DNA from: Escherichia phage A4
Sequence record: ON286972
Reading direction: 5' to 3' (one strand)
DNA: 64,000 bases
Of the stretch, positions 15,710 through 50,671 are shown piece by piece. Each line of letters opens with the position of its first letter. The stretch's first letter is position 1. The notes under the pieces are model-generated. The model worked only from the letters and a program-made list of their open reading frames with translations, was not told the DNA's origin and did not search any database. A program made the position numbers and the translations under genes.

Positions 15710-16199
<490 letters not shown>

Positions 16200-16216
16200 T
16201 AATTAAAGGTTAAACC

Positions 16217-16595
<379 letters not shown>

Positions 16596-16596
16596 C

Positions 16597-17611
<1,015 letters not shown>

Positions 17612-17614
17612 TTC

Positions 17615-17770
<156 letters not shown>

Positions 17771-17798
17771 CAAAACGAAATGATAATAGGAAATTAAA

Positions 17799-17984
17799 AT
17801 GCAACTTTTAATTCTTTCAATATTGTATATTATTATAATGGTTCCTATATCAATACGTTTAATTATACTTGAACGATTTTTATCGAAACATGGAAATAGA
17901 TCTATGATATTTGTACCAATCGGGCTTATATTGTTTGGTATATTTGCATTTATAATGGGAATTAACGCTACATTCATTTCATAG
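17799..17984 (+). CDS. small membrane protein (61 aa)
   Basis: ORF track; two hydrophobic helices. Confidence 0.45.
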   Translation: MQLLILSILYIIIMVPISIRLIILERFLSKHGNRSMIFVPIGLILFGIFAFIMGINATFIS

Positions 17985-17993
17985 GAAACAAAT

Positions 17994-18475
<482 letters not shown>

Positions 18476-18482
18476 AAGAACG

Positions 18483-18515
<33 letters not shown>

Positions 18516-18516
18516 C

Positions 18517-18572
<56 letters not shown>

Positions 18573-18573
18573 T

Positions 18574-18780
<207 letters not shown>

Positions 18781-18874
18781 GGTTCAAGAAGAAAACTGGG
18801 GTTTTTAACCTAACGAGGTCAATATGAAAGTAAGTAAAGAAACAGCTAAACAGATTGAAGAACTCTGCACTGCT

Positions 18875-18913
<39 letters not shown>

Positions 18914-18914
18914 A

Positions 18915-18966
<52 letters not shown>

Positions 18967-18967
18967 A

Positions 18968-19098
<131 letters not shown>

Positions 19099-32899: not shown

Positions 32900-32906
32900 A
32901 GAAAAA

Positions 32907-32934
32907 GGGTTGACTTAGGTCAGCCCTTTTTTTA
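32907..32934 (+). terminator. intrinsic terminator (GGGTTGAC-TTAG-GTCAGCCC hairpin)
   Basis: Same hairpin family as the downstream terminator/promoter cassettes, followed by TTTTTTT, no good -10. Confidence 0.6.
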
Positions 32935-33457
32935 TGGGACAAAATGGATGTTCATGATACAATGATATTGTACAATTCTGTTGGCATGGATGACATGAAC
33001 CTGATCCACTCGAAAATGTAGAGGGCAGTTGAGCAGTCCAGCAGTGCGAAGTGCAGAAGAAACCCGTCAGATGTGGGCATATTATGAACCCCTCACGGCA
33101 ATGCGGCACTATAAAGAACCACGTTAGGATGGCTGGTGGTTCCTCGATAGACATATAAGGATAACACCTTACGAATTATCTAAGGGAGAGTTATCAAATT
33201 TTGTACAGGAAAGTTGCGTCCAAAATTTGAGTACTCACATTAAGTATTTGATTGCATAGATACTTAATGAAGATACACTATGTTTAAAAGTGTAGACCGT
33301 CATATGAAACTGAAGTAGAGAGAAACAGGATGACCCGCTTTCGTACTCATTAAGAGTAATCTTCAATGCAATAGCTCTGATACCATCAGCGTCAAATTCC
33401 CCTCCCAGCGGGGGGAAGAAAAATCCCTTCCTCAAATCCCGTCAATATTAAAAGTCC

Positions 33458-33486
33458 TTGACAGTTATTAATCATTCGCGTAGAAT
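33458..33486 (+). promoter_or_regulatory. sigma70-type promoter
   Basis: TTGACA-N17-TAGAAT. Confidence 0.5.
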
Positions 33487-33550
33487 ACGTAGTATTAGAA
33501 GCGAACAGACATCTCGAAGAGATGGATGACTAACTATTAAGGAACATTCA

Positions 33551-34812: not shown

Positions 34813-34840
34813 TTGACATAAGATATCAGTACTGTATAAT
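34813..34840 (+). promoter_or_regulatory. sigma70-type promoter
   Basis: TTGACA-N16-TATAAT with cagtactg spacer. Confidence 0.55.
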
Positions 34841-34884
34841 GTTTATATCAACGACACCCACTTTAACAAATAATAGGAAATATT

Positions 34885-35163
34885 ATGTCTTTTACCAAAG
34901 AAGAACGTGACCTTATTAAAAAAGCAATCTGGTTTTATGCTAATGAAGGGGAGTGCGATGAAGAAAAAGCACGTGAACTGTGTAATATCCTTGAGCAGAA
35001 ACAAGAACTGAAAGTTTATCGTATCCGTGTTTTGGATGACGGGGATCGTATTGTCCTAGCTGAAACAAAAGAAGAAGCAGAACAAATCTTCACTGATAAA
35101 AACGAAAATCCACATTGGATGGAAGAAGTCTGTGAAGTAAAAAAAGGTACTTATATCGATTGA
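34885..35163 (+). CDS. hypothetical acidic protein (92 aa)
   Basis: ORF track; TGA stop sits inside the next -35 (TTGACT). Confidence 0.5.
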   Translation: MSFTKEERDLIKKAIWFYANEGECDEEKARELCNILEQKQELKVYRIRVLDDGDRIVLAETKEEAEQIFTDKNENPHWMEEVCEVKKGTYID

Positions 35164-35188
35164 CTGTACTGAATAATAGCAGTATAAT
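35160..35188 (+). promoter_or_regulatory. sigma70-type promoter followed by long leader hairpin
   Basis: TTGACT-N17-TATAAT, then 13-bp stem GGGAATGCAGTGA...GTCACTGCGTTCCC at 35200-35250. Confidence 0.5.
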
Positions 35189-35281
35189 GTTTATATCAAA
35201 GGGAATGCAGTGAAAGGAAAGACAGCATAATCGTACTCGTCACTGCGTTCCCGCCCTTTTAAATTAAATGAGGAATTAACT

Positions 35282-35590
35282 ATGTTTCAAACTAACACTC
35301 AAGGTTTTGTAATCATCGATTTGAATCAAAACAGCGGTTATTGGATGAAACCTACTGACGCATGTATGCAGTTTGATTTCTTAGGTTACAGAATTAGTGT
35401 AAGTACTGGTGCTTCTGTACTGCGTGGTGGTTGTATCGTTGAACATCTGGTAACTGATCCAGAAGGTCGTGAGTATGAAATCGCAGGTTCAGTACAAGAT
35501 GCCATTATGTTTGTATGTCAGCGTGAAATGAATGGTTCGAATTCAAATGCACTGACTCATGCTCTTTCTCAAGAAGTGGAGGTTCGTTAA
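35282..35590 (+). CDS. hypothetical protein (102 aa)
   Basis: ORF track; GAGGAA RBS. Confidence 0.5.
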   Translation: MFQTNTQGFVIIDLNQNSGYWMKPTDACMQFDFLGYRISVSTGASVLRGGCIVEHLVTDPEGREYEIAGSVQDAIMFVCQREMNGSNSNALTHALSQEVEVR

Positions 35591-39599: not shown

Positions 39600-39690
39600 T
39601 AACCAAGTACTCATATAAAATACAGAATAGTATTAAATACTTGTGTACTAGTTAAGTACGCAAGTATTTTTTTATTATTTTGAGGTTAAT

Positions 39691-40056
39691 ATGGGAAAGC
39701 TTACAATTATAATAGCCATGATAATGGCACTTAATGTTATGCCAGTTGAAGCTAACGAGGACGTTGCGTGGTTCGATTGCATAGGAAATGATGGACAGTG
39801 GCATACGTTTTCCAGTGATCCATATAATGGTACTGATATACTAATAGATGGTGAAAATTATCGTTTTGTTAGTGAAAGTAAAATTGGCAACAAAAAGGTA
39901 TCGACATTTAGAACTGATTCTGGTATAATTGCTAATGTCATAATGATAGTTGATCCTGAAAATAATACAGGGGATATATATGTAGTGGTTTACCGTGATC
40001 ATTCCAATAAAAGAAGTCTGGATCTTGATAAACTTCATTTACATTGTCAAATATAA
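39691..40056 (+). CDS. secreted hypothetical protein (signal peptide)
   Basis: ORF track; MGKLTIIIAMIMALNVMPVEA; paralog of 40442..40795. Confidence 0.5.
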   Translation: MGKLTIIIAMIMALNVMPVEANEDVAWFDCIGNDGQWHTFSSDPYNGTDILIDGENYRFVSESKIGNKKVSTFRTDSGIIANVIMIVDPENNTGDIYVVVYRDHSNKRSLDLDKLHLHCQI

Positions 40057-40070
40057 TTTAAGGTAAATCT

Positions 40071-40445
40071 ATGTTCAATAGTATCATTGGGTTCTCATTA
40101 GTACTTCCACAAATCATTTTTGGTATTTGTTTTGTAACTTTTATGATGGGGTCAATCTATGGTATATGGTATTACATTTTAAAACAATCAGATGGAATCA
40201 TTTTAAAAATAACAATGCATTTTGATGTGGATTCACCAGCATGGAATTCATCTATTATTACCAATACATTGTATTTTATGATGATCATTTTGGAACAATT
40301 GGGATTTGTATCTAATAGTAATGTTTCTATGACCGCAGGTATGGCAAGTATTTGTTGTTTGTGGTATATTGTTTATAAGATTGATGTGTTGTATAATATG
40401 TATCGTGAAATGGTATTGAACAGAGATATGCAGAGGAAAAAATGA
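40071..40445 (+). CDS. integral membrane protein (124 aa)
   Basis: ORF track. Confidence 0.5.
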   Translation: MFNSIIGFSLVLPQIIFGICFVTFMMGSIYGIWYYILKQSDGIILKITMHFDVDSPAWNSSIITNTLYFMMIILEQLGFVSNSNVSMTAGMASICCLWYIVYKIDVLYNMYREMVLNRDMQRKK

Positions 40446-40795
40446 TGAAAGTTATATTATTTTTTATGTGTATTATTATGTGTGGTGTCTCTTATGCTGC
40501 ACCCTTAGCCGGATTGCTTTGTAAAGAGAATTCTGAACAACACATATTCCAAGGGGATTCAGATGACCTTGATATCATTTACATCGATGGTACTGAATAT
40601 ACATACGTTAAAGACCATACTGTTGGTGATATCAGTTTCACTGAATATGCAAAAACAGGTGACACTGATTATAGAGCCTACCTTCAAGTGAATATGATAG
40701 AGGGTGAAGACGGAACACAAGAAGTCAAACTCGTACTTAAACGTATTGGAGATAAGGAGGCTGATTTTGGAGGTGAGTGTACATATGATGATTGA
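40442..40795 (+). CDS. secreted hypothetical protein, paralog of 39691..40056
   Basis: ORF track; signal peptide; shared DG.EY...G pattern. Confidence 0.5.
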   Translation: MMKVILFFMCIIMCGVSYAAPLAGLLCKENSEQHIFQGDSDDLDIIYIDGTEYTYVKDHTVGDISFTEYAKTGDTDYRAYLQVNMIEGEDGTQEVKLVLKRIGDKEADFGGECTYDD

Positions 40796-40803
40796 TTAAA
40801 AAA

Positions 40804-40836
40804 GGTTGACTAACGTCAGCCTTTTTTGTTATACTG
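40804..40836 (+). promoter_or_regulatory. terminator/promoter cassette (hairpin containing -35, T-tract, -10)
   Basis: GGTTGAC-TAAC-GTCAGCC hairpin, TTTTTT, TATACT; TTGACT -35 lies inside the stem. Confidence 0.55.
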
Positions 40837-40844
40837 ATCCCAAT

Positions 40845-40970
40845 ATGCTTGCATTTCTTCAAGTTGATGTATATGAAGAAAGTAATGGCGAACAGTATGT
40901 TAAACTTGTGATGATGCGTAAGGCAGCAAAACAGGCAACATTCGGTGGCTTGTGTAAATATGAGGACTAA
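40845..40970 (+). pseudogene. truncated copy of the C-terminus of the 40442..40795 gene family (41 aa)
   Basis: LQVDVYEESNGEQYVKLVMMRKAAKQATFGGLCKYED versus LQVNMIEGEDGTQEVKLVLKRIGDKEADFGGECTYDD. Confidence 0.4.
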
Positions 40971-40974
40971 ACAT

Positions 40975-41166
40975 ATGTTGATTTATCAATGTGATAACAT
41001 TCGTGTTATACAGCATCCCTACTTACAAATCTTTGATGTGCAGCAGTATATGGAAGGTGATGACCCAAGAACCTATGGTCGTAAGTATGATTACTTCACT
41101 GTAAAGCAGTGTCGTAACATCAAAGAAGTACGACAATTAGTTCAAGAACTTCAAAATAAAGGTTGA
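40975..41166 (+). CDS. hypothetical protein (63 aa)
   Basis: Track ORF 40945..41166 trimmed to ATG 40975 after GAGGA. Confidence 0.45.
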   Translation: MLIYQCDNIRVIQHPYLQIFDVQQYMEGDDPRTYGRKYDYFTVKQCRNIKEVRQLVQELQNKG

Positions 41167-41193
41167 CTTCGGTCAGCCTTTTTTGTTATAATC
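41161..41193 (+). promoter_or_regulatory. terminator/promoter cassette
   Basis: GGTTGAC-TTCG-GTCAGCC hairpin, TTTTTT, TATAAT; the TGA stop of the upstream gene is inside the hairpin. Confidence 0.6.
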
Positions 41194-41221
41194 ATTTCAT
41201 CTACTACTGGGGATTTTAATT

Positions 41222-41662
41222 ATGTATGTATATCGTTTTGAACTTAAATTCAGTTATATTGAACCTAACTTAGATCCTGCAAAAACAGTAGGACCGTTCG
41301 CACGGTACTCTTCGCGATACAGTACTAAAAATGGATTTGAACGTTTGTGTATGACTACACCTTCGCAATTCCAACCTGAGCCAACTGAAGATGGGATATA
41401 TTCAATCAAACGTGGCTGGGTATTTGGTTGTCAGAGTTTGAATGATTTGTTTAAGTTCTTTACTATGGACTTGGGTAAATTACATCGTGCAGGGTTCGCT
41501 GTATCAGTATATGAAGTTCCTGATAACCATGTAGACATTGGACATAACCAAGTGCAGTACTATTGTGGTAGTGCAAAACTACTTCGTATTATGTCAGTAA
41601 AGGAAGCTAAAGAAGAATTTCGTGCTACAAGATTTAATAAGGAAGAGATGGCATATGAATAA
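41222..41662 (+). CDS. hypothetical protein (146 aa)
   Basis: ORF track. Confidence 0.55.
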   Translation: MYVYRFELKFSYIEPNLDPAKTVGPFARYSSRYSTKNGFERLCMTTPSQFQPEPTEDGIYSIKRGWVFGCQSLNDLFKFFTMDLGKLHRAGFAVSVYEVPDNHVDIGHNQVQYYCGSAKLLRIMSVKEAKEEFRATRFNKEEMAYE

Positions 41663-42011
41663 AACATCAACACGATTTGCAAAGTACTTGAGTTATGAAA
41701 TACCACAAGATCCGTATTTCGACCAACGTGACGATGAAGATTACATAAAGTTAACTCGTGAACTACGAAATAAGTTCCAACAGATTTTAAGTTCATACAC
41801 TAATACACATCCACATTTAAAGTACTTCATTAAGGCAGATATAGATTCAGATGATTCTGAACTATCATTCCTTGAATACACAGTTGAGTGTGTTGGGTAT
41901 GTACCTGATAATAGTGTAATTAATCACAACAAAATAAAGTTCGACTTGTACGTTATTTGTGTTATAATGAACTTAATTGCACAAATGAACAACTATTCAA
42001 TAGGGGATTAA
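41655..42011 (+). CDS. hypothetical protein (118 aa)
   Basis: Track ORF 41622..42011 trimmed to ATG 41655. Confidence 0.5.
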   Translation: MNKTSTRFAKYLSYEIPQDPYFDQRDDEDYIKLTRELRNKFQQILSSYTNTHPHLKYFIKADIDSDDSELSFLEYTVECVGYVPDNSVINHNKIKFDLYVICVIMNLIAQMNNYSIGD

Positions 42012-42275
42012 ATGAAACTGAAATTGAACTATCATGGTTTTCGTCTGCGTGATGATGTGGAGTTCCTTCGTCGCACACCAGGTGCTGAATTGTTTTTAAC
42101 TGAAATGGGTGTCCCATTTAAAGTCGAGCACATTGGTGACAATGACTGCCTGGTATATGATAATCAACCAGATATCAACGTTCCGTGGTATTCTGAACAT
42201 ATGTACATTGATATGGCGGCTCGCTACAACTGTACGTTTGAAATTACATCTAAAGGTATTGCTATTCAATTCTAA
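42012..42275 (+). CDS. hypothetical protein (87 aa)
   Basis: ORF track. Confidence 0.5.
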   Translation: MKLKLNYHGFRLRDDVEFLRRTPGAELFLTEMGVPFKVEHIGDNDCLVYDNQPDINVPWYSEHMYIDMAARYNCTFEITSKGIAIQF

Positions 42276-42521: not shown

Positions 42522-42527
42522 ACTACG

Positions 42528-47889: not shown

Positions 47890-47916
47890 TATGTACGCAT
47901 TGTATAATAAAGAAAA

Positions 47917-47950
47917 GGATTGACTTCAGTCAGCCCTTTTTTCTATAATC
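47917..47950 (+). promoter_or_regulatory. terminator/promoter cassette
   Basis: GGATTGAC-TTCA-GTCAGCCC, TTTTTT, TATAAT, then conserved CATTTCATC. Confidence 0.55.
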
Positions 47951-47977: not shown

Positions 47978-48415
47978 ATGACACGCATTAACTTAGTACA
48001 TGTTAAAGAACTTGCTGACCAACATCTGATGGCTGAATATCGTGAACTTCCACGTGTGTTTGGTGCTGTACAAAAACATGTTCAAGCACGTAAGCGTGTA
48101 CGTGATTTCAAAATTAACAGTACTTATCTGTTAGGTTCAGGTCATGTAACATTCTTCTACGACAAGTTACTATACTTACAGAAGCGTCATATTGATATTG
48201 TTAACGAATGTTTGCGTCGTGGTATGAAGATTCAAAACACTGAAGTAAACGACATTAGCGGCTTCCCTGCTGAGTTTTGTAATGACTACGTACCATCGGA
48301 GTCCGAGATTAAAACATCACGCGAGCGTTTGATTGAGAAGCTTCAGATGAAGCCTAAGTGGTATAAGTTTACTGATGTTGAGCTACCTATATATTATGTT
48401 GATATGATACAATGA
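47978..48415 (+). CDS. denV: pyrimidine-dimer DNA glycosylase / endonuclease V
   Basis: Near full-length similarity to T4 endonuclease V as recalled: [30 protein letters not shown]...KRVRDFKI......[11 protein letters not shown]. Confidence 0.9.
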
Positions 48416-48639
48416 ATGATGAAGAATTCAAAAAATATGCGATTGCGAAGCTTGATTCATACAAGTCACGCGAAACGTATAAATTTAATCCTGATAAAAC
48501 AAAAGCATCTATAAGATGGATGATTAATTCACCCAAATATACATTTGACGAAAAATATTCATGGATAGTGCAATGTAGTGATTATGAGGATTTGGTATAT
48601 AATATTAAACTGTGTTGGTATGAATACAACAATAAATGA
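48412..48639 (+). CDS. hypothetical protein (75 aa)
   Basis: ORF track; ATGA overlap. Confidence 0.45.
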
Positions 48640-48645
48640 TATAAG

Positions 48646-48679
48646 GGGTTGACTTCGGTCAGCCCTTTTTGCTATAATC
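48646..48679 (+). promoter_or_regulatory. terminator/promoter cassette
   Basis: GGGTTGAC-TTCG-GTCAGCCC, TTTTT, TATAAT, CATTTCATC. Confidence 0.6.
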
Positions 48680-48704
48680 ATTTCATCAAATTAAGAGGTG
48701 ATAC

Positions 48705-48944
48705 ATGAAACTATCTTTTATACGTTTAGCAGAATTCTTCGGTACTGATATAATTACTTTACAACAAATTGCAGACAATACTTCATTAAGTACACAAGAA
48801 GTACTTGACTTAGATGTGATAGAGTGTGATAATACTTCTATCGATTATAAAGAAGGTCTTGTCGAAAAAGATAAGATTCAGGCTAAGATTAATGGTGCTG
48901 GACGGGTTCAGTACTGGAAAGGAGTTTTAAGTCATGCCAGCTAA
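48705..48944 (+). CDS. hypothetical protein (79 aa)
   Basis: ORF track; AGAGGTGA RBS. Confidence 0.45.
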   Translation: MKLSFIRLAEFFGTDIITLQQIADNTSLSTQEVLDLDVIECDNTSIDYKEGLVEKDKIQAKINGAGRVQYWKGVLSHAS

Positions 48945-50631
48945 ATTAACCCCTAAACAAGCAAAAGAAAAATTCAACAAAAAAGTATTAGAACATAACG
49001 TTCCAATTGAAGCTGATTATAGTAAGTATGAAAATGCCAAATTAAAAAACATCCAAGTAGTTTGCAATGATGTATTAAAACACAAATCAGGCATATCACA
49101 AATATATCTTATGGATCACGCAAACCTCACACACCCATCCAAAAAATTTGGTTGTCCTGAATGTGAAGACTGGTATAATGGTCATGCTAAAAGTTTAGAT
49201 ATTTTAATTGTTAGGGAAAGAATTAATTCTTGGATTAGTACTTATGGCGGGATTATTGATACGGTTAGTGGTGAAGTTGAAGTTTATAAAAATAATTCAT
49301 CCAAAATACCATATATTTGTAAAAATGGAACTAAAAAAACGCTTACTATTTCTTCACTTGGCGATGAAATCGGTTGTAATTGTTCTAAATGTAAAGCTGA
49401 ATTAATATCAGAAATCGAAGATAACAATGAATATACATCCATGACTACTGTTGATGATTGTGTTACAATTTCCCATTTTAAATTTGGGGATGATGTTGCA
49501 TTCTCGTGGATTTCACCATTGGAAATGAAAAAACATGGTTACTGTCTTGCCGAAAAAATGAAAGAAAAAGCATTGTCGGTTGGTAAAAATATTATTGGAT
49601 ATGCAATATCATCTCTTAGTGAATGGAAAAATGAAAAAACTCCTGTAATAACCGAACACGAAGGAGTATTATATCGTATTTCCAAAGCATCATATTTGAT
49701 CAATAATAATATAGTACATAGACCACATTATACAAAAAATAATTTTTTATATTATTTTTACAAATGTTCACCTAACAATCAACTTATTACACCAATCCTA
49801 ATACCTGATGATATTGGTACAAAAAAGAAAATTAAAGTATGTTATAAATCATGTGGGTGTGAATATGATATATCTGTGGACGTTATAATGAACAGAAATT
49901 TAAAAACTTGTGGAAACTGTAAAAATATAGATACTAATAAATTTATAGAACAGTGCTTGGAGTTCACTTCAAGTGGAGATTATATCTATGATAGAGTAAA
50001 CTATATAAATCAAAGTACACCTGTAACTATAGTTCATAAAATTTACGGCGAATTCAAAAGTACACCACAAAATCACTTAATACATTTAAAAAACGGTTTG
50101 AAATATGATACAGCTAACTTTAAAATAAAAAATTTAACTCAATTTAAAATTAAAGCAAATGAAGTTCATAATAACTTATATAATTATGATAAAGTTGATT
50201 ATGTAAATTCTTCAACGAAAGTATTAATAACTCATCCAGTATATGGAGACTTTTGGCAAACTCCAGCAAGTCACCTTGGTGGGTGTGGTCATCCACTTGC
50301 GGCTGGTCATTCTCAGCAATATGCATATATTCATAATATTTTGGATGGTGTTTTATCTGTAGCATTGAAATATGGGATTGAAAAGCAGAAAGGTAAGAGG
50401 GTGATGCAGCAAAATAAAAAATCCATGTTTCAAGTTCAATCTCTGTATACTTATTTTTTTCCATCTGTATACGAATGTAAGCAAGCTGAAAAAGAATGTA
50501 AGAAACTATTTGGTAAAGGTGTTTTAACTAAACAAGAAATGCCAGACGGGTATACTGAAACAACTACACCAAACAACATAGATAAAATTATTGCCATCTA
50601 TGAAAAATGGGGTGGGGTGAAACAAAACTAA
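48934..50631 (+). CDS. Cys-rich protein with three internal repeats (565 aa)
   Basis: ORF track; CPECEDW, CNCSKC, CGCEYD, CGNCKN pairs; repeat Y.YD.V.Y.N.ST.V.I.H..YG.F..TP..HL three times. Confidence 0.6.
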   Translation: MPAKLTPKQAKEKFNKKVLEHNVPIEADYSKYENAKLKNIQVVCNDVLKHKSGISQIYLMDHANLTHPSKKFGCPECEDWYNGHAKSLDILIVRERINSWISTYGGIIDTVSGEVEVYKNNSSKIPYICKNGTKKTLTISSLGDEIGCNCSKCKAELISEIEDNNEYTSMTTVDDCVTISHFKFGDDVAFSWISPLEMKKHGYCLAEKMKEKALSVGKNIIGYAISSLSEWKNEKTPVITEHEGVLYRISKASYLINNNIVHRPHYTKNNFLYYFYKCSPNNQLITPILIPDDIGTKKKIKVCYKSCGCEYDISVDVIMNRNLKTCGNCKNIDTNKFIEQCLEFTSSGDYIYDRVNYINQSTPVTIVHKIYGEFKSTPQNHLIHLKNGLKYDTANFKIKNLTQFKIKANEVHNNLYNYDKVDYVNSSTKVLITHPVYGDFWQTPASHLGGCGHPLAAGHSQQYAYIHNILDGVLSVALKYGIEKQKGKRVMQQNKKSMFQVQSLYTYFFPSVYECKQAEKECKKLFGKGVLTKQEMPDGYTETTTPNNIDKIIAIYEKWGGVKQN

Positions 50632-50637
50632 ACAAAA

Positions 50638-50671
50638 GGGTTGACTTCGGTCAGCCCTTTTTGCTATAATT
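50638..50671 (+). promoter_or_regulatory. terminator/promoter cassette
   Basis: GGGTTGAC-TTCG-GTCAGCCC, TTTTT, TATAAT, TATTTCATC. Confidence 0.6.

What the first reader, a model, noticed from the sequence alone, without database searches (positions are those of the whole stretch)
39691..40970. Truncated gene duplicate sitting directly behind a terminator/promoter cassette
A 41-codon ORF (40845..40970) encodes LQVDVYEESNGEQYVKLVMMRKAAKQATFGGLCKYED, clearly homologous to the C-terminus of the gene immediately upstream (40442..40795, ...LQVNMIEGEDGTQEVKLVLKRIGDKEADFGGECTYDD). That gene is itself paralogous to 39691..40056. The fragment lies right after cassette 40804..40836, which fits cassette-mediated illegitimate recombination leaving a gene remnant.
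Basis: seen in the sequence. Interest (0 to 1): 0.5.

Follow-up and report, generated by a model that had tools for sequence, protein, structure and literature searches.

The report
Recombination scar beside a phage promoter cassette
The 41-codon ORF is a dead 3' fragment of another phage lineage's version of the neighbouring gene, dragged in when a small foreign gene was spliced onto the -10 box of a terminator/promoter cassette in a jumbo coliphage; this is ordinary phage mosaicism, but the pre-insertion form and a near-identical donor-type sequence are both available.

Summary
ORF 40845-40970 matches the C-terminus of gene 40442-40795 (51% aa, E 2e-12) and sits directly behind a terminator/promoter cassette. 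It is not a duplicate of that gene. Its 140 nt (40831-40970) are 140/140 identical to the 3' end of the single orthologous gene of Escherichia phage EC.P1 (Asteriusvirus), and only 57% identical to the gene next door.

Four near-identical or related contigs ("type A") lack both the fragment and the 63-aa gene: the cassette leads straight to the 146-aa gene. Three other independent assemblies carry exactly the window's junction.

The fragment is the left end of a roughly 0.7-kb EC.P1-like patch (40831 to about 41520). The patch delivered a 63-aa gene and its downstream cassette.
- **Left join:** illegitimate, at the 5-nt microhomology ATACT inside the resident cassette's -10 hexamer (TATACT).
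- **Right join:** a homologous crossover inside the 146-aa gene, at different positions in different contigs.

The cassettes resemble the PeSLs of T4-like phages, and block boundaries in the window cluster at them. The result is a well-resolved recombination scar. The fragment has no RBS and no signal peptide, and there is no evidence of function.

The parts
39691..40056 (+). 121-aa secreted-type small protein (phrog_25709), an ancient paralogue of the 117-aa gene
40071..40445 (+). 124-aa hydrophobic (membrane-type) protein between the two paralogues (phrog_31707). It is syntenic in all relatives.
40442..40795 (+). Resident ('type A') 117-aa gene, phrog_27330. It has a signal-peptide-like N-terminus and a predicted 8-stranded beta-barrel. 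The best match in the phage collection is 57% aa; contigs L006-L011 carry the P0001 sequence, which is 99% identical to the window's protein.
40797..40828 (+). Terminator-like hairpin of the resident cassette (14-bp stem, loop UAAC, then a U-run). The -35 TTGACT lies at 40806-40811 within its 5' arm.
40830..40835 (+). -10 hexamer TATACT (extended, with TG upstream), native to the type-A cassette. Its last five bases, ATACT (40831-40835), are the microhomology at the illegitimate junction.
40836..40970 (+). Gene remnant: the 3' end of the EC.P1-type allele, 140/140 nt identical to EC.P1 when the ATACT is included. It contains the 41-codon ORF 40845-40970, which starts at an internal Met codon of the parent gene. 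It has no SD of its own. It carries the SD (GAGGA, 40962-40966) of the next gene and now forms that gene's 5' leader of about 130 nt.
40975..41166 (+). 63-aa accessory gene (phrog_6957), the cargo of the acquired patch. It is 190/192 nt identical to EC.P1 and absent from the type-A contigs held.
41158..41192 (+). Second cassette, EC.P1-type, imported with the patch: hairpin 41158-41181, -35 TTGACT at 41163, -10 TATAAT at 41187-41192. It forms a direct repeat with the first cassette 357 nt upstream.
41222..41662 (+). 146-aa gene (phrog_1106; the product of the relatives' gene carries Pfam PF26820 Phage_T4_Y00F). It is chimeric: EC.P1-type up to about 41510-41527 and type-A after that. This homologous right-hand crossover lies at about 41350-41363 in contig L007.

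Best explanation
The window comes from an Asteriusvirus-like (121Q/PBECO4/EC.P1 group) jumbo coliphage, in its early-gene region of small + strand ORFs.

In this phage's own lineage ('type A') the order is: 117-aa gene, terminator/promoter cassette, 146-aa gene. In EC.P1-like phages ('type E') the order is: 116-aa orthologue, 63-aa gene, cassette, 146-aa gene.

During a mixed infection (inferred), an out-of-register illegitimate join formed between the -10 hexamer of the type-A cassette (gttATACT|tattcc) and an internal site of the type-E 116-aa gene (atgATACT|gatccc), using 5 nt of microhomology. To the right, the exchange was resolved by ordinary homologous crossover inside the 146-aa gene.

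The product keeps the complete type-A gene and an intact cassette with TATACT regenerated. Behind it lie the last 140 nt of the type-E gene, then the 63-aa gene with its native Shine-Dalgarno (which lies inside the remnant), and then the type-E cassette.

The 41-codon ORF is therefore a recombination scar. It is probably transcribed from the cassette promoter as the 5' leader of a new monocistronic unit, from a predicted start near 40842 to the terminator at 41158-41181.

**Shown:** the three genome states, the junction, the microhomology and the different right-hand breakpoints.
**Inferred:** mixed infection, the direction of transfer, promoter and terminator activity, and non-translation of the ORF.
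For: **Donor-type state.** EC.P1, 121Q and slurp01 have one intact 116-aa gene in this slot, directly followed by the 63-aa gene. All 44 phage records hit by tblastn have a single place.

**Identity to EC.P1.**
- Window 40831-40970 is 140/140 identical to EC.P1.
- The 63-aa gene is 190/192 identical.
- The EC.P1-type part of the 146-aa gene is 284/299 identical.
- The flanks are only about 45-73% identical to EC.P1.

**Pre-insertion state.** Contigs L006, L008 and L010 (98-99.5% identical to the window) and L005 (88%) have the cassette ...GTTATACT followed by TATTCCATATTAATTGAATAGGTGCACATCATG and the 146-aa gene. They have no remnant and no 63-aa gene.

**Same junction in independent assemblies.** It is present in L007 (NCBI GCA_012813795.2, a 357,761-bp contig), L009 (ENA) and L011 (Logan).

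**Breakpoints from informative sites.** The window is E-type from the junction to 41510-41527. L007 is E-type only to 41350-41363. Both are A-type beyond that.

**Microhomology.** There are 5 exact bases at the junction (11 of 14 around it). P(at least 5) = 0.009 for random junction pairs.

**No gene called.** No gene is called on the remnant in L007 or L011. There is no SD upstream of its ATG.

**What the fragment would encode.** It corresponds to roughly the last three strands of a predicted 8-stranded barrel. It lacks the signal peptide and Cys27.
Against: - The exact donor has not been sampled. The best database match for the whole patch is 95.0-95.5%, so the polarity and the one-step scenario rest on parsimony.
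- No complete type-A genome was available, so I could not check whether the 63-aa gene sits elsewhere in type-A phages.
- The remnant is identical in all carriers, so there is no sequence variation with which to test selection for or against the ORF.
- Promoter activity, terminator activity and the transcription start are consensus predictions only.
Confidence: 0.8

Rival explanations
1. In-situ tandem duplication of the 117-aa gene, followed by 5' truncation of the second copy. This is the literal 'truncated gene duplicate' reading.
For: The fragment lies directly downstream of a homologous full-length gene.
Against: - The fragment is 100% identical to the EC.P1 allele but only 57.5% nt / 51% aa identical to its neighbour.
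- The high-identity EC.P1-like patch continues for another 550 nt or so to the right.
- Closely related contigs have no second copy.
Confidence: 0.02
2. The arrangement with remnant and 63-aa gene (type B) is ancestral in this lineage, and type A arose from it by deletion between the two cassettes.
For: The two cassettes are direct repeats of about 30 nt, 357 nt apart. In the PeSL model these would promote such deletions (PMC2839356).
Against: - A cassette-by-cassette deletion would leave the spacer ...TATAATCATTTCATCTACTACTGGGG and the E-type 5' end of the 146-aa gene. Type A instead has a different spacer (TATACTTATTCCATATTAATTG...) and a 146-aa gene 5' part only 76-85% identical.
- The more distant L005 (88% to the window) shares the type-A arrangement. 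Type-B contigs are nested among sequences 98-99.5% identical to the type-A contigs L006, L008 and L010.
- The patch is an island of 95-100% identity to EC.P1 in a 45-73% background.
Confidence: 0.06
3. The ORF is a functional micropeptide or leader peptide. It might be translated from a near-leaderless transcript and coupled to translation of the 63-aa gene, whose ATG lies 4 nt after its stop. This is compatible with the recombinational origin.
For: - The ATG at 40845 lies 10 nt after the -10 hexamer, so a very short leader is possible.
- The stop-to-ATG spacing of 4 nt is the same as for the parent gene in EC.P1.
- The ORF is intact in all four carriers.
Against: - The start codon is merely an internal Met of the parent gene, and there is no SD.
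- The ORF being intact is uninformative, because the 140 nt show zero substitutions relative to EC.P1.
- The peptide lacks the signal peptide and one of the two invariant cysteines. It equals about 3 of 8 barrel strands.
- Gene callers do not call it in L007 or L011.
- The 63-aa gene has its own SD.
Confidence: 0.08
4. Classical PeSL-type event: homologous recombination between two cassettes, or integration of a cassette-bearing mini-circle, inserted the module.
For: - The final topology, with the ORF flanked by two cassettes where relatives have one, is exactly the RB49/phi1 ORF192 pattern (PMC2839356).
- Other indels in this window are clean promoter-by-promoter or cassette-bounded events.
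Against: - In the type-E phages examined at nucleotide level (EC.P1, 121Q, slurp01, UE-S1) there is no cassette upstream of the fragment. The sequence left of ATACT is coding DNA with no resemblance to the cassette.
- The right-hand breakpoint lies within the 146-aa gene, not in the cassette.
Confidence: 0.04
5. Assembly chimera between co-occurring type-A and type-E phages.
For: Both types exist in public data.
Against: - The shared sequence at the join is only 5 nt, far below any assembler k-mer.
- The identical junction occurs in four independent assemblies from NCBI, ENA and two SRA runs, with two different right-hand breakpoints.
Confidence: 0.01

Closest known systems
PeSLs (promoter-early stem-loops) of T4-like phages (Arbiol et al. 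2010, PMC2839356; Comeau et al. 2014, PMC4122927)
   Same: - Composite sigma70-type early promoter plus terminator hairpin, with the hairpin overlapping the -35. This is one of the described PeSL sub-classes.
- Many copies in ORFan-rich early regions.
- Indels and replacements between related phages are bounded by them.
- An ORF flanked by two cassettes where relatives have one.
   Different: - The host genome is an Asteriusvirus jumbo phage, not a T4-like phage. In the papers I searched, no description of PeSLs in this group turned up.
- This particular junction is not cassette-by-cassette homologous recombination. It is a 5-nt microhomology join between a cassette -10 box and gene-internal DNA, which is why a gene fragment was left behind.
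- The PeSL papers do not mention truncated genes or remnants.
Morons of lambdoid phages (Hendrix et al. 2000, as discussed in PMC2839356)
   Same: A single small accessory gene ends up between two resident genes with its own promoter upstream and terminator downstream. The origin is presumably illegitimate recombination.
   Different: Here the promoter was not brought in by the gene. It was captured from the recipient's cassette, and only the terminator/next promoter came with the cargo. The orientation is the same as the surrounding transcription.
Mosaic-junction gene fragments produced by non-homologous recombination plus selection in tailed phages (general model of Hendrix and colleagues; from my own knowledge, not checked here)
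   Same: A novel joint at a short microhomology, followed by homologous recombination in the flanks that spreads or trims the patch. A non-functional fragment is tolerated because it lies between genes.
   Different: Nothing essential. This is a particularly clean example because both sides of the join can be compared: the pre-insertion sequence and a near-identical donor-type sequence are both available.

Membership tests
Gene remnant / pseudogene fragment at a recombination joint | Significant homology to part of a full-length gene, with the intact gene present at the orthologous place in relatives | tested here: met
   140/140 nt identical to the 3' end of the EC.P1 116-aa gene. There is a single intact copy in 44 phage records.
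Gene remnant / pseudogene fragment at a recombination joint | Lacks the parts needed for expression and function (own RBS, N-terminal signal peptide, conserved residues) | tested here: met
   - There is no SD before ATG 40845.
- It lacks residues 1-76, including the signal-peptide-like segment and the invariant Cys27.
- No gene is called on it in L007 or L011.
Gene remnant / pseudogene fragment at a recombination joint | Not expressed as a protein | not testable with these tools
   Needs Ribo-seq or proteomics of infected cells.
Tandem gene duplicate (truncated paralogue) | The two adjacent copies are each other's closest relatives | tested here: not met
   The fragment is 57.5% nt / 51% aa identical to its neighbour but 100% identical to the EC.P1 allele.
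PeSL-type regulatory cassette | Sigma70-like -35/-10 promoter combined with a stable stem-loop positioned as a terminator | tested here: met
   TTGACT, 18 nt with TG, then TATACT/TATAAT. The hairpins fold at -16.2 and -13.3 kcal/mol, z = -6.6 and -4.7, and are followed by a T-run.
PeSL-type regulatory cassette | Repeated, intergenic, concentrated in ORFan-rich variable regions | tested here: met
   There are 5 near-identical copies plus degenerate ones in the window, against 0 expected. Copies are also present in EC.P1, slurp01, 121Q, UE-S1, CMSTMSU and RaK2 loci.
PeSL-type regulatory cassette | Boundaries of indels and replacements between related phages coincide with the cassettes | tested here: met
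   8 of 24 boundaries of blocks at least 85% identical to EC.P1 lie within 12 nt of a strong promoter or cassette. These sites cover 2.9% of the window (binomial P 2e-7). Individual cases were inspected. Caveats: intergenic bias, and BLAST HSP ends are only approximate.
PeSL-type regulatory cassette | This junction was formed by homologous recombination between two cassettes | tested here: not met
   The partner of the left join is coding DNA of the 116-aa gene with only ATACT in common. The right breakpoint is inside the 146-aa gene.
PeSL-type regulatory cassette | Demonstrated promoter and terminator activity; mini-circle formation | not testable with these tools
   Experimental (reporter fusions, PCR for circles), as in PMC2839356.
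PeSL-type regulatory cassette | Host genome is a T4-like myovirus | tested here: not met
   The closest relatives are Asteriusvirus jumbo phages.

The most novel reading that the evidence does not exclude
The terminator/promoter cassettes of Asteriusvirus and RaK2-like jumbo phages may be PeSL-equivalent recombination hot spots that work in two ways. One is cassette-by-cassette exchange. The other is 'promoter capture': microhomology joins between cassette elements (the -10 box, or the A-run arm of the hairpin) and arbitrary foreign DNA, which immediately place new cargo under an early promoter. Two such scars lie in this one window, at 40831 and 47915. In this reading the retained fragment could additionally act as a functional leader, supplying the RBS and possibly translational coupling for the captured 63-aa gene.
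Probability: 0.3. Interest if true: 0.45.

Novelty: new member of a known kind. Interest (0 to 1): 0.3.

Why it matters
This is a clean natural example of how phage mosaic joints arise. The pre-insertion genome, a donor-type sequence identical over the fragment, and two derivative recombinants with the same illegitimate left joint but different homologous right joints are all available.

It shows a foreign gene being wired to a resident early promoter through 5 nt of microhomology. It also extends the PeSL concept, described for T4-like phages, to 350-kb Asteriusvirus phages.

For annotation, the practical point is that the 41-codon ORF should not be called as a gene, and that the 63-aa gene here forms its own transcription unit.

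It does not reveal a new kind of element or open a long-standing question.

Tried and rejected
**Searches for more carriers of the junction**
- The exact type-B junction gave 0 hits in IMG/VR.
- A degenerate pattern covering both type-A and type-B junctions gave 0 hits in IMG/VR and in JGI metagenomes.
- Megablast of 39600-42100 against complete E. coli genomes and PLSDB plasmids gave no match.
- All close relatives came from the protein-identity look-ups.

**Function of the genes**
- Pfam gave no hit for any of the five proteins at this locus.
- PHROGs gave only families of unknown function.
- A Foldseek search of the predicted 117-aa structure against the PDB gave only a weak lipocalin-like match (Tp0751, E 6e-3, TM 0.49). 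I use it only to say 'small 8-stranded beta-barrel'.

**Structure of the leader**
- Folding the predicted 5' leader formed by the remnant showed nothing unusual (z = -0.21). I drop any riboswitch or attenuator idea.

**Scan for further scars**
- A crude scan of all intergenic gaps of at least 90 nt for further coding remnants was confounded by my simple ATG-only gene calling. I did not pursue it beyond the cases listed.

**Rejected scenarios**
- Tandem duplication, deletion-derived type A, assembly chimera, and a pure cassette-by-cassette exchange. See the rival explanations.
Full report
**1. What is in the sequence**

The region is part of a long run of small + strand ORFs. The order is:
- 121-aa gene, 39691-40056
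- 124-aa hydrophobic gene, 40071-40445
- 117-aa gene, 40442-40795
- a hairpin at 40797-40828 whose 5' arm contains a -35 TTGACT, followed after 18 nt (with an extended-10 TG) by TATACT at 40830-40835
- the 41-codon ORF, 40845-40970
- a 63-aa gene, 40975-41166, whose Shine-Dalgarno GAGGA lies in the last codons of the 41-codon ORF
- a second, nearly identical hairpin/promoter at 41158-41192
- a 146-aa gene, 41222-41662

Supporting measurements:
- The hairpins fold at -16.2 and -13.3 kcal/mol (z = -6.6 and -4.7).
- The 30-nt cassette core occurs five times in the window with at most 2 mismatches, against none in 100 shuffles. More degenerate copies lie at 42527, 43812 and 47913.
- The 41-aa product matches residues 79-117 of the 117-aa protein: 20/39 identical, E 2e-12.
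- The 121-aa and 117-aa proteins are distant paralogues: BLASTP E 2e-5, hhalign probability 96.7% and E 4.3e-10, and a PHROG cross-hit.

**2. Where the window comes from**

Megablast places the window among Asteriusvirus jumbo coliphages of about 350 kb: 121Q, PBECO4, slurp01, EC.P1, TH47 and others. Coverage is patchy, with 40-56% of 30000-52000 matching at 84-88%.

For the 3-kb query around the finding, the only megablast match starts at window 40831, inside the cassette's -10 box. It runs to 41613 at 95% identity to TH47 and EC.P1.

**3. The intact gene in relatives**

In EC.P1 the syntenic genes are a 121-aa, a 127-aa and a 116-aa gene, with the 63-aa gene starting 4 nt after the stop of the 116-aa gene. 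Then come a cassette and the 146-aa gene. 121Q and slurp01 have the same layout; 121Q's deposited start codons give shorter annotated products. There is no cassette between the 116-aa gene and the 63-aa gene.

The EC.P1 protein ends ...SNDTDPNMLAFLQVDVYEESNGEQYVKLVMMRKAAKQATFGGLCKYED. So the window's 41-aa ORF is exactly its C-terminus, starting at an internal Met.

- At nucleotide level, window 40831-40970 is 140/140 identical to EC.P1.
- It is only 69/120 identical to the corresponding part of the gene next to it.
- tblastn with the window's 117-aa protein finds one place per genome in 44 phage records. The best identity is 57%.

The fragment is therefore not a decayed tandem copy of its neighbour. 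It is a piece of another lineage's allele of the same gene.

**4. The pre-insertion state and other carriers**

The protein search found the window's allele in public assemblies at 99% (P0001) and 80% (P0002) identity. Their contigs fall into two classes.

*Type A* (L006, L008, L010 and the more distant L005):
- The sequence reads ...GTCAGCCTTTTTTGTTATACT|TATTCCATATTAATTGAATAGGTGCACATCATG, then the 146-aa gene.
- There is no fragment and no 63-aa gene.

*Type B* (the window; L007, a 357,761-bp contig of NCBI assembly GCA_012813795.2 labelled E. coli; L009 from ENA; L011 from Logan):
- The sequence reads ...GTTATACT|GATCCCAATATG..., the identical junction in all four.

Outside the patch the window is 98.3-99.5% identical to the type-A contigs L006, L008 and L010, and 88% identical to L005. 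Type B is thus nested within a type-A background. TATACT is the native -10 box of the type-A cassette.

**5. Anatomy of the patch**

A six-way alignment and an informative-site analysis give the following:
- The window is A-type up to 40835.
- It is E-type (EC.P1-like) from the junction to between 41510 and 41527.
- It is A-type again after that.
- L007 shares the left junction but switches back to A-type at 41350-41363.
- L011 is window-like, with 5 mismatches in 1160 nt.

Identity to EC.P1 by segment:

| Segment | Identical to EC.P1 |
|---|---|
| Remnant | 140/140 |
| 63-aa gene | 190/192 |
| Second cassette and spacer | 66/69 |
| E-type part of the 146-aa gene | 284/299 |

The flanks are 45-73% identical to EC.P1.

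**6. The joints**

*Left joint.* The type-A cassette reads gttATACT|tattcc and the EC.P1 gene reads atgATACT|gatccc. Five bases are shared exactly, and 11 of 14 around the joint match. For random pairs of positions in these two regions, P(at least 5 nt of microhomology) is 0.009. The crossover regenerates the full extended -10 element.

*Right joint.* This is ordinary homologous crossover inside the 146-aa gene, which is 76-85% identical between the two types. The two different positions in the window and in L007 indicate that the rare illegitimate left joint arose once and that the right side was later trimmed by further homologous exchange with type-A phages.

**7. Most likely mechanism**

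An out-of-register illegitimate join formed between collinear type-A and type-E genomes, presumably in a mixed infection, and was then resolved by homologous recombination.

Consequences:
- The resident early promoter now heads a small unit of about 340 nt, from a predicted start near 40842 to the terminator at 41158-41181. It consists of a leader of about 130 nt (the remnant) and the 63-aa gene.
- Any acquisition that keeps the 63-aa gene's native RBS has to include the end of the 116-aa gene. The extra ~120 nt simply reflects where the microhomology lay.

The ORF is probably not meaningfully translated:
- It has no SD.
- Its ATG is an internal Met codon.
- It lacks the signal-peptide-like segment and the invariant Cys27.
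- It corresponds to roughly the last three strands of a predicted 8-stranded beta-barrel (mean pLDDT 80.7).
- Gene callers did not call it in L007 or L011.

It shows zero substitutions relative to EC.P1, so neither decay nor conservation can be read from it.

**8. Is it 'cassette-mediated'?**

The cassettes have the architecture and distribution of PeSLs, the promoter-early stem-loops of T4-like phages. Those were shown to act as promoters and terminators, and were proposed to mediate modular shuffling by recombination between PeSLs (PMC2839356; PMC4122927).

Evidence in this window that the same applies generally:
- Of 24 boundaries of blocks at least 85% identical to EC.P1, 8 lie within 12 nt of a strong sigma70-like promoter or cassette. 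These sites cover 2.9% of the window (P = 2e-7; 9 of 24 and P = 4e-6 with a laxer promoter set). Caveats: the boundaries are BLAST HSP ends, and no correction for intergenic position was made.
- Inspection shows a clean promoter-by-promoter insertion of a 92-aa ORF at 34856-35200, flanked by the 18-nt repeat GTATAATGTTTATATCAA.
- It also shows a module of about 2 kb between twin cassettes at 48647 and 50639, where EC.P1 has one cassette.
- At 47891-47923 there is a second gene stub fused to a cassette through an A-run microhomology.

The specific joint of the finding, however, is not a cassette-by-cassette exchange. Its partner is coding DNA, and that is precisely why a gene fragment was left. 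The resulting topology, with the ORF between two cassettes, is the one from which PeSL-type deletion or mini-circle formation could later proceed.

**9. Comparison with what is known, and novelty**

Gene fragments at mosaic joints, and PeSL-type cassettes, are both known. What may be new is modest:
- In the jumbo-phage papers I could search, I found no description of PeSL-like cassettes or of their link to mosaic boundaries in the Asteriusvirus/RaK2 group. The cassette core is also present in a RaK2 locus.
- The PeSL papers do not mention truncated genes or microhomology joints at cassettes.

I file this as a new member of a known kind.

**10. Verdict**

- Interest is 0.3. The reconstruction is clean and instructive, but the outcome is what a phage genomicist would expect.

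Noticed in passing
window 34813-35200: A 92-aa ORF (34885-35163) plus a second promoter sits between two copies of the 18-nt promoter-proximal repeat GTATAATGTTTATATCAA. EC.P1 has a single promoter and no ORF here; slurp01 has the module. This is a clean promoter-by-promoter (PeSL-style) indel.
   Followed up: partly
window 47891-47949: A 10-codon 5' stub (ATGTACGCATTGTATAATAAAGAAAAGGATTGA) of a gene that is full-length in EC.P1 (L003 8140-7853, followed by a second gene at 7856-7443) is fused directly to the A-run arm of cassette 47913. About 660 nt are missing relative to EC.P1. The microhomology is AAAGAAAAG against GAAAGAAAAAAGG. This is a second gene remnant abutting a cassette.
   Followed up: partly
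window 48381-50670: A module of about 2 kb is flanked by two near-identical cassettes (48643-48678 and 50634-50670) where EC.P1 has a single cassette. The 3' end of the upstream gene also diverges from EC.P1 starting at 48381.
   Followed up: partly
window 35271-35575 vs L006 1132-1135: The 102-aa gene 35282-35590 is precisely absent from the otherwise 97-98% identical contig L006. The deletion joint lies between the Shine-Dalgarno regions of two consecutive genes (aaTGAGGaatt / gtGGAGGttcg), which suggests RBS motifs also serve as microhomology for gene-sized indels.
   Followed up: partly
window 32935-33550: An ORF-free stretch of about 600 nt, relatively G+C-rich, lies downstream of a cassette (32903-32935). 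In slurp01 the matching stretch starts immediately after the annotated rpoD sigma-factor gene. It is 86-89% conserved in EC.P1 and slurp01, where it is also unannotated. There is no Rfam match, and folding is not exceptional (z = -1.35). A promoter for the next gene lies at 33458-33486. Its function is unknown; a non-coding RNA or a replication/regulatory region are possibilities.
   Followed up: partly
window 16019-19088: A cluster of six tRNA genes (Ser-tga, Gly-tcc, Ser-gct, Met-cat, Asn-gtt, Thr-tgt) on the + strand, interspersed with promoters. Several identity-block boundaries against EC.P1 lie next to them.
   Followed up: no
L007 (NCBI GCA_012813795.2, contig AATHYQ020000001.1, 357,761 bp): A contig deposited under Escherichia coli matches this jumbo-phage window at about 97.5% identity over the 12.4 kb compared. 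At 357,761 bp it is in the size range of Asteriusvirus genomes, so it is probably an essentially complete phage genome. This lineage is absent from the INPHARED phage collection used (the best match there to the 117-aa gene is 57% aa).
   Followed up: no
window 40442-40795 (protein): The 117-aa protein is predicted (mean pLDDT 80.7) to be a small 8-stranded all-beta protein behind a signal-peptide-like segment, with two invariant cysteines (C27, C113). The only structural neighbour is weak: Treponema Tp0751, a lipocalin-like fold, E 6e-3, TM 0.49. Function is unknown. The paralogous pair is conserved from RaK2 to Asteriusvirus.
   Followed up: partly
L012 5258-5280 (Klebsiella phage RaK2): The same cassette core (GGTTGACnnnnGTCARCCYTTTT) occurs in RaK2 (genus Alcyoneusvirus), so the cassette family predates the split between the two genera.
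   Followed up: no
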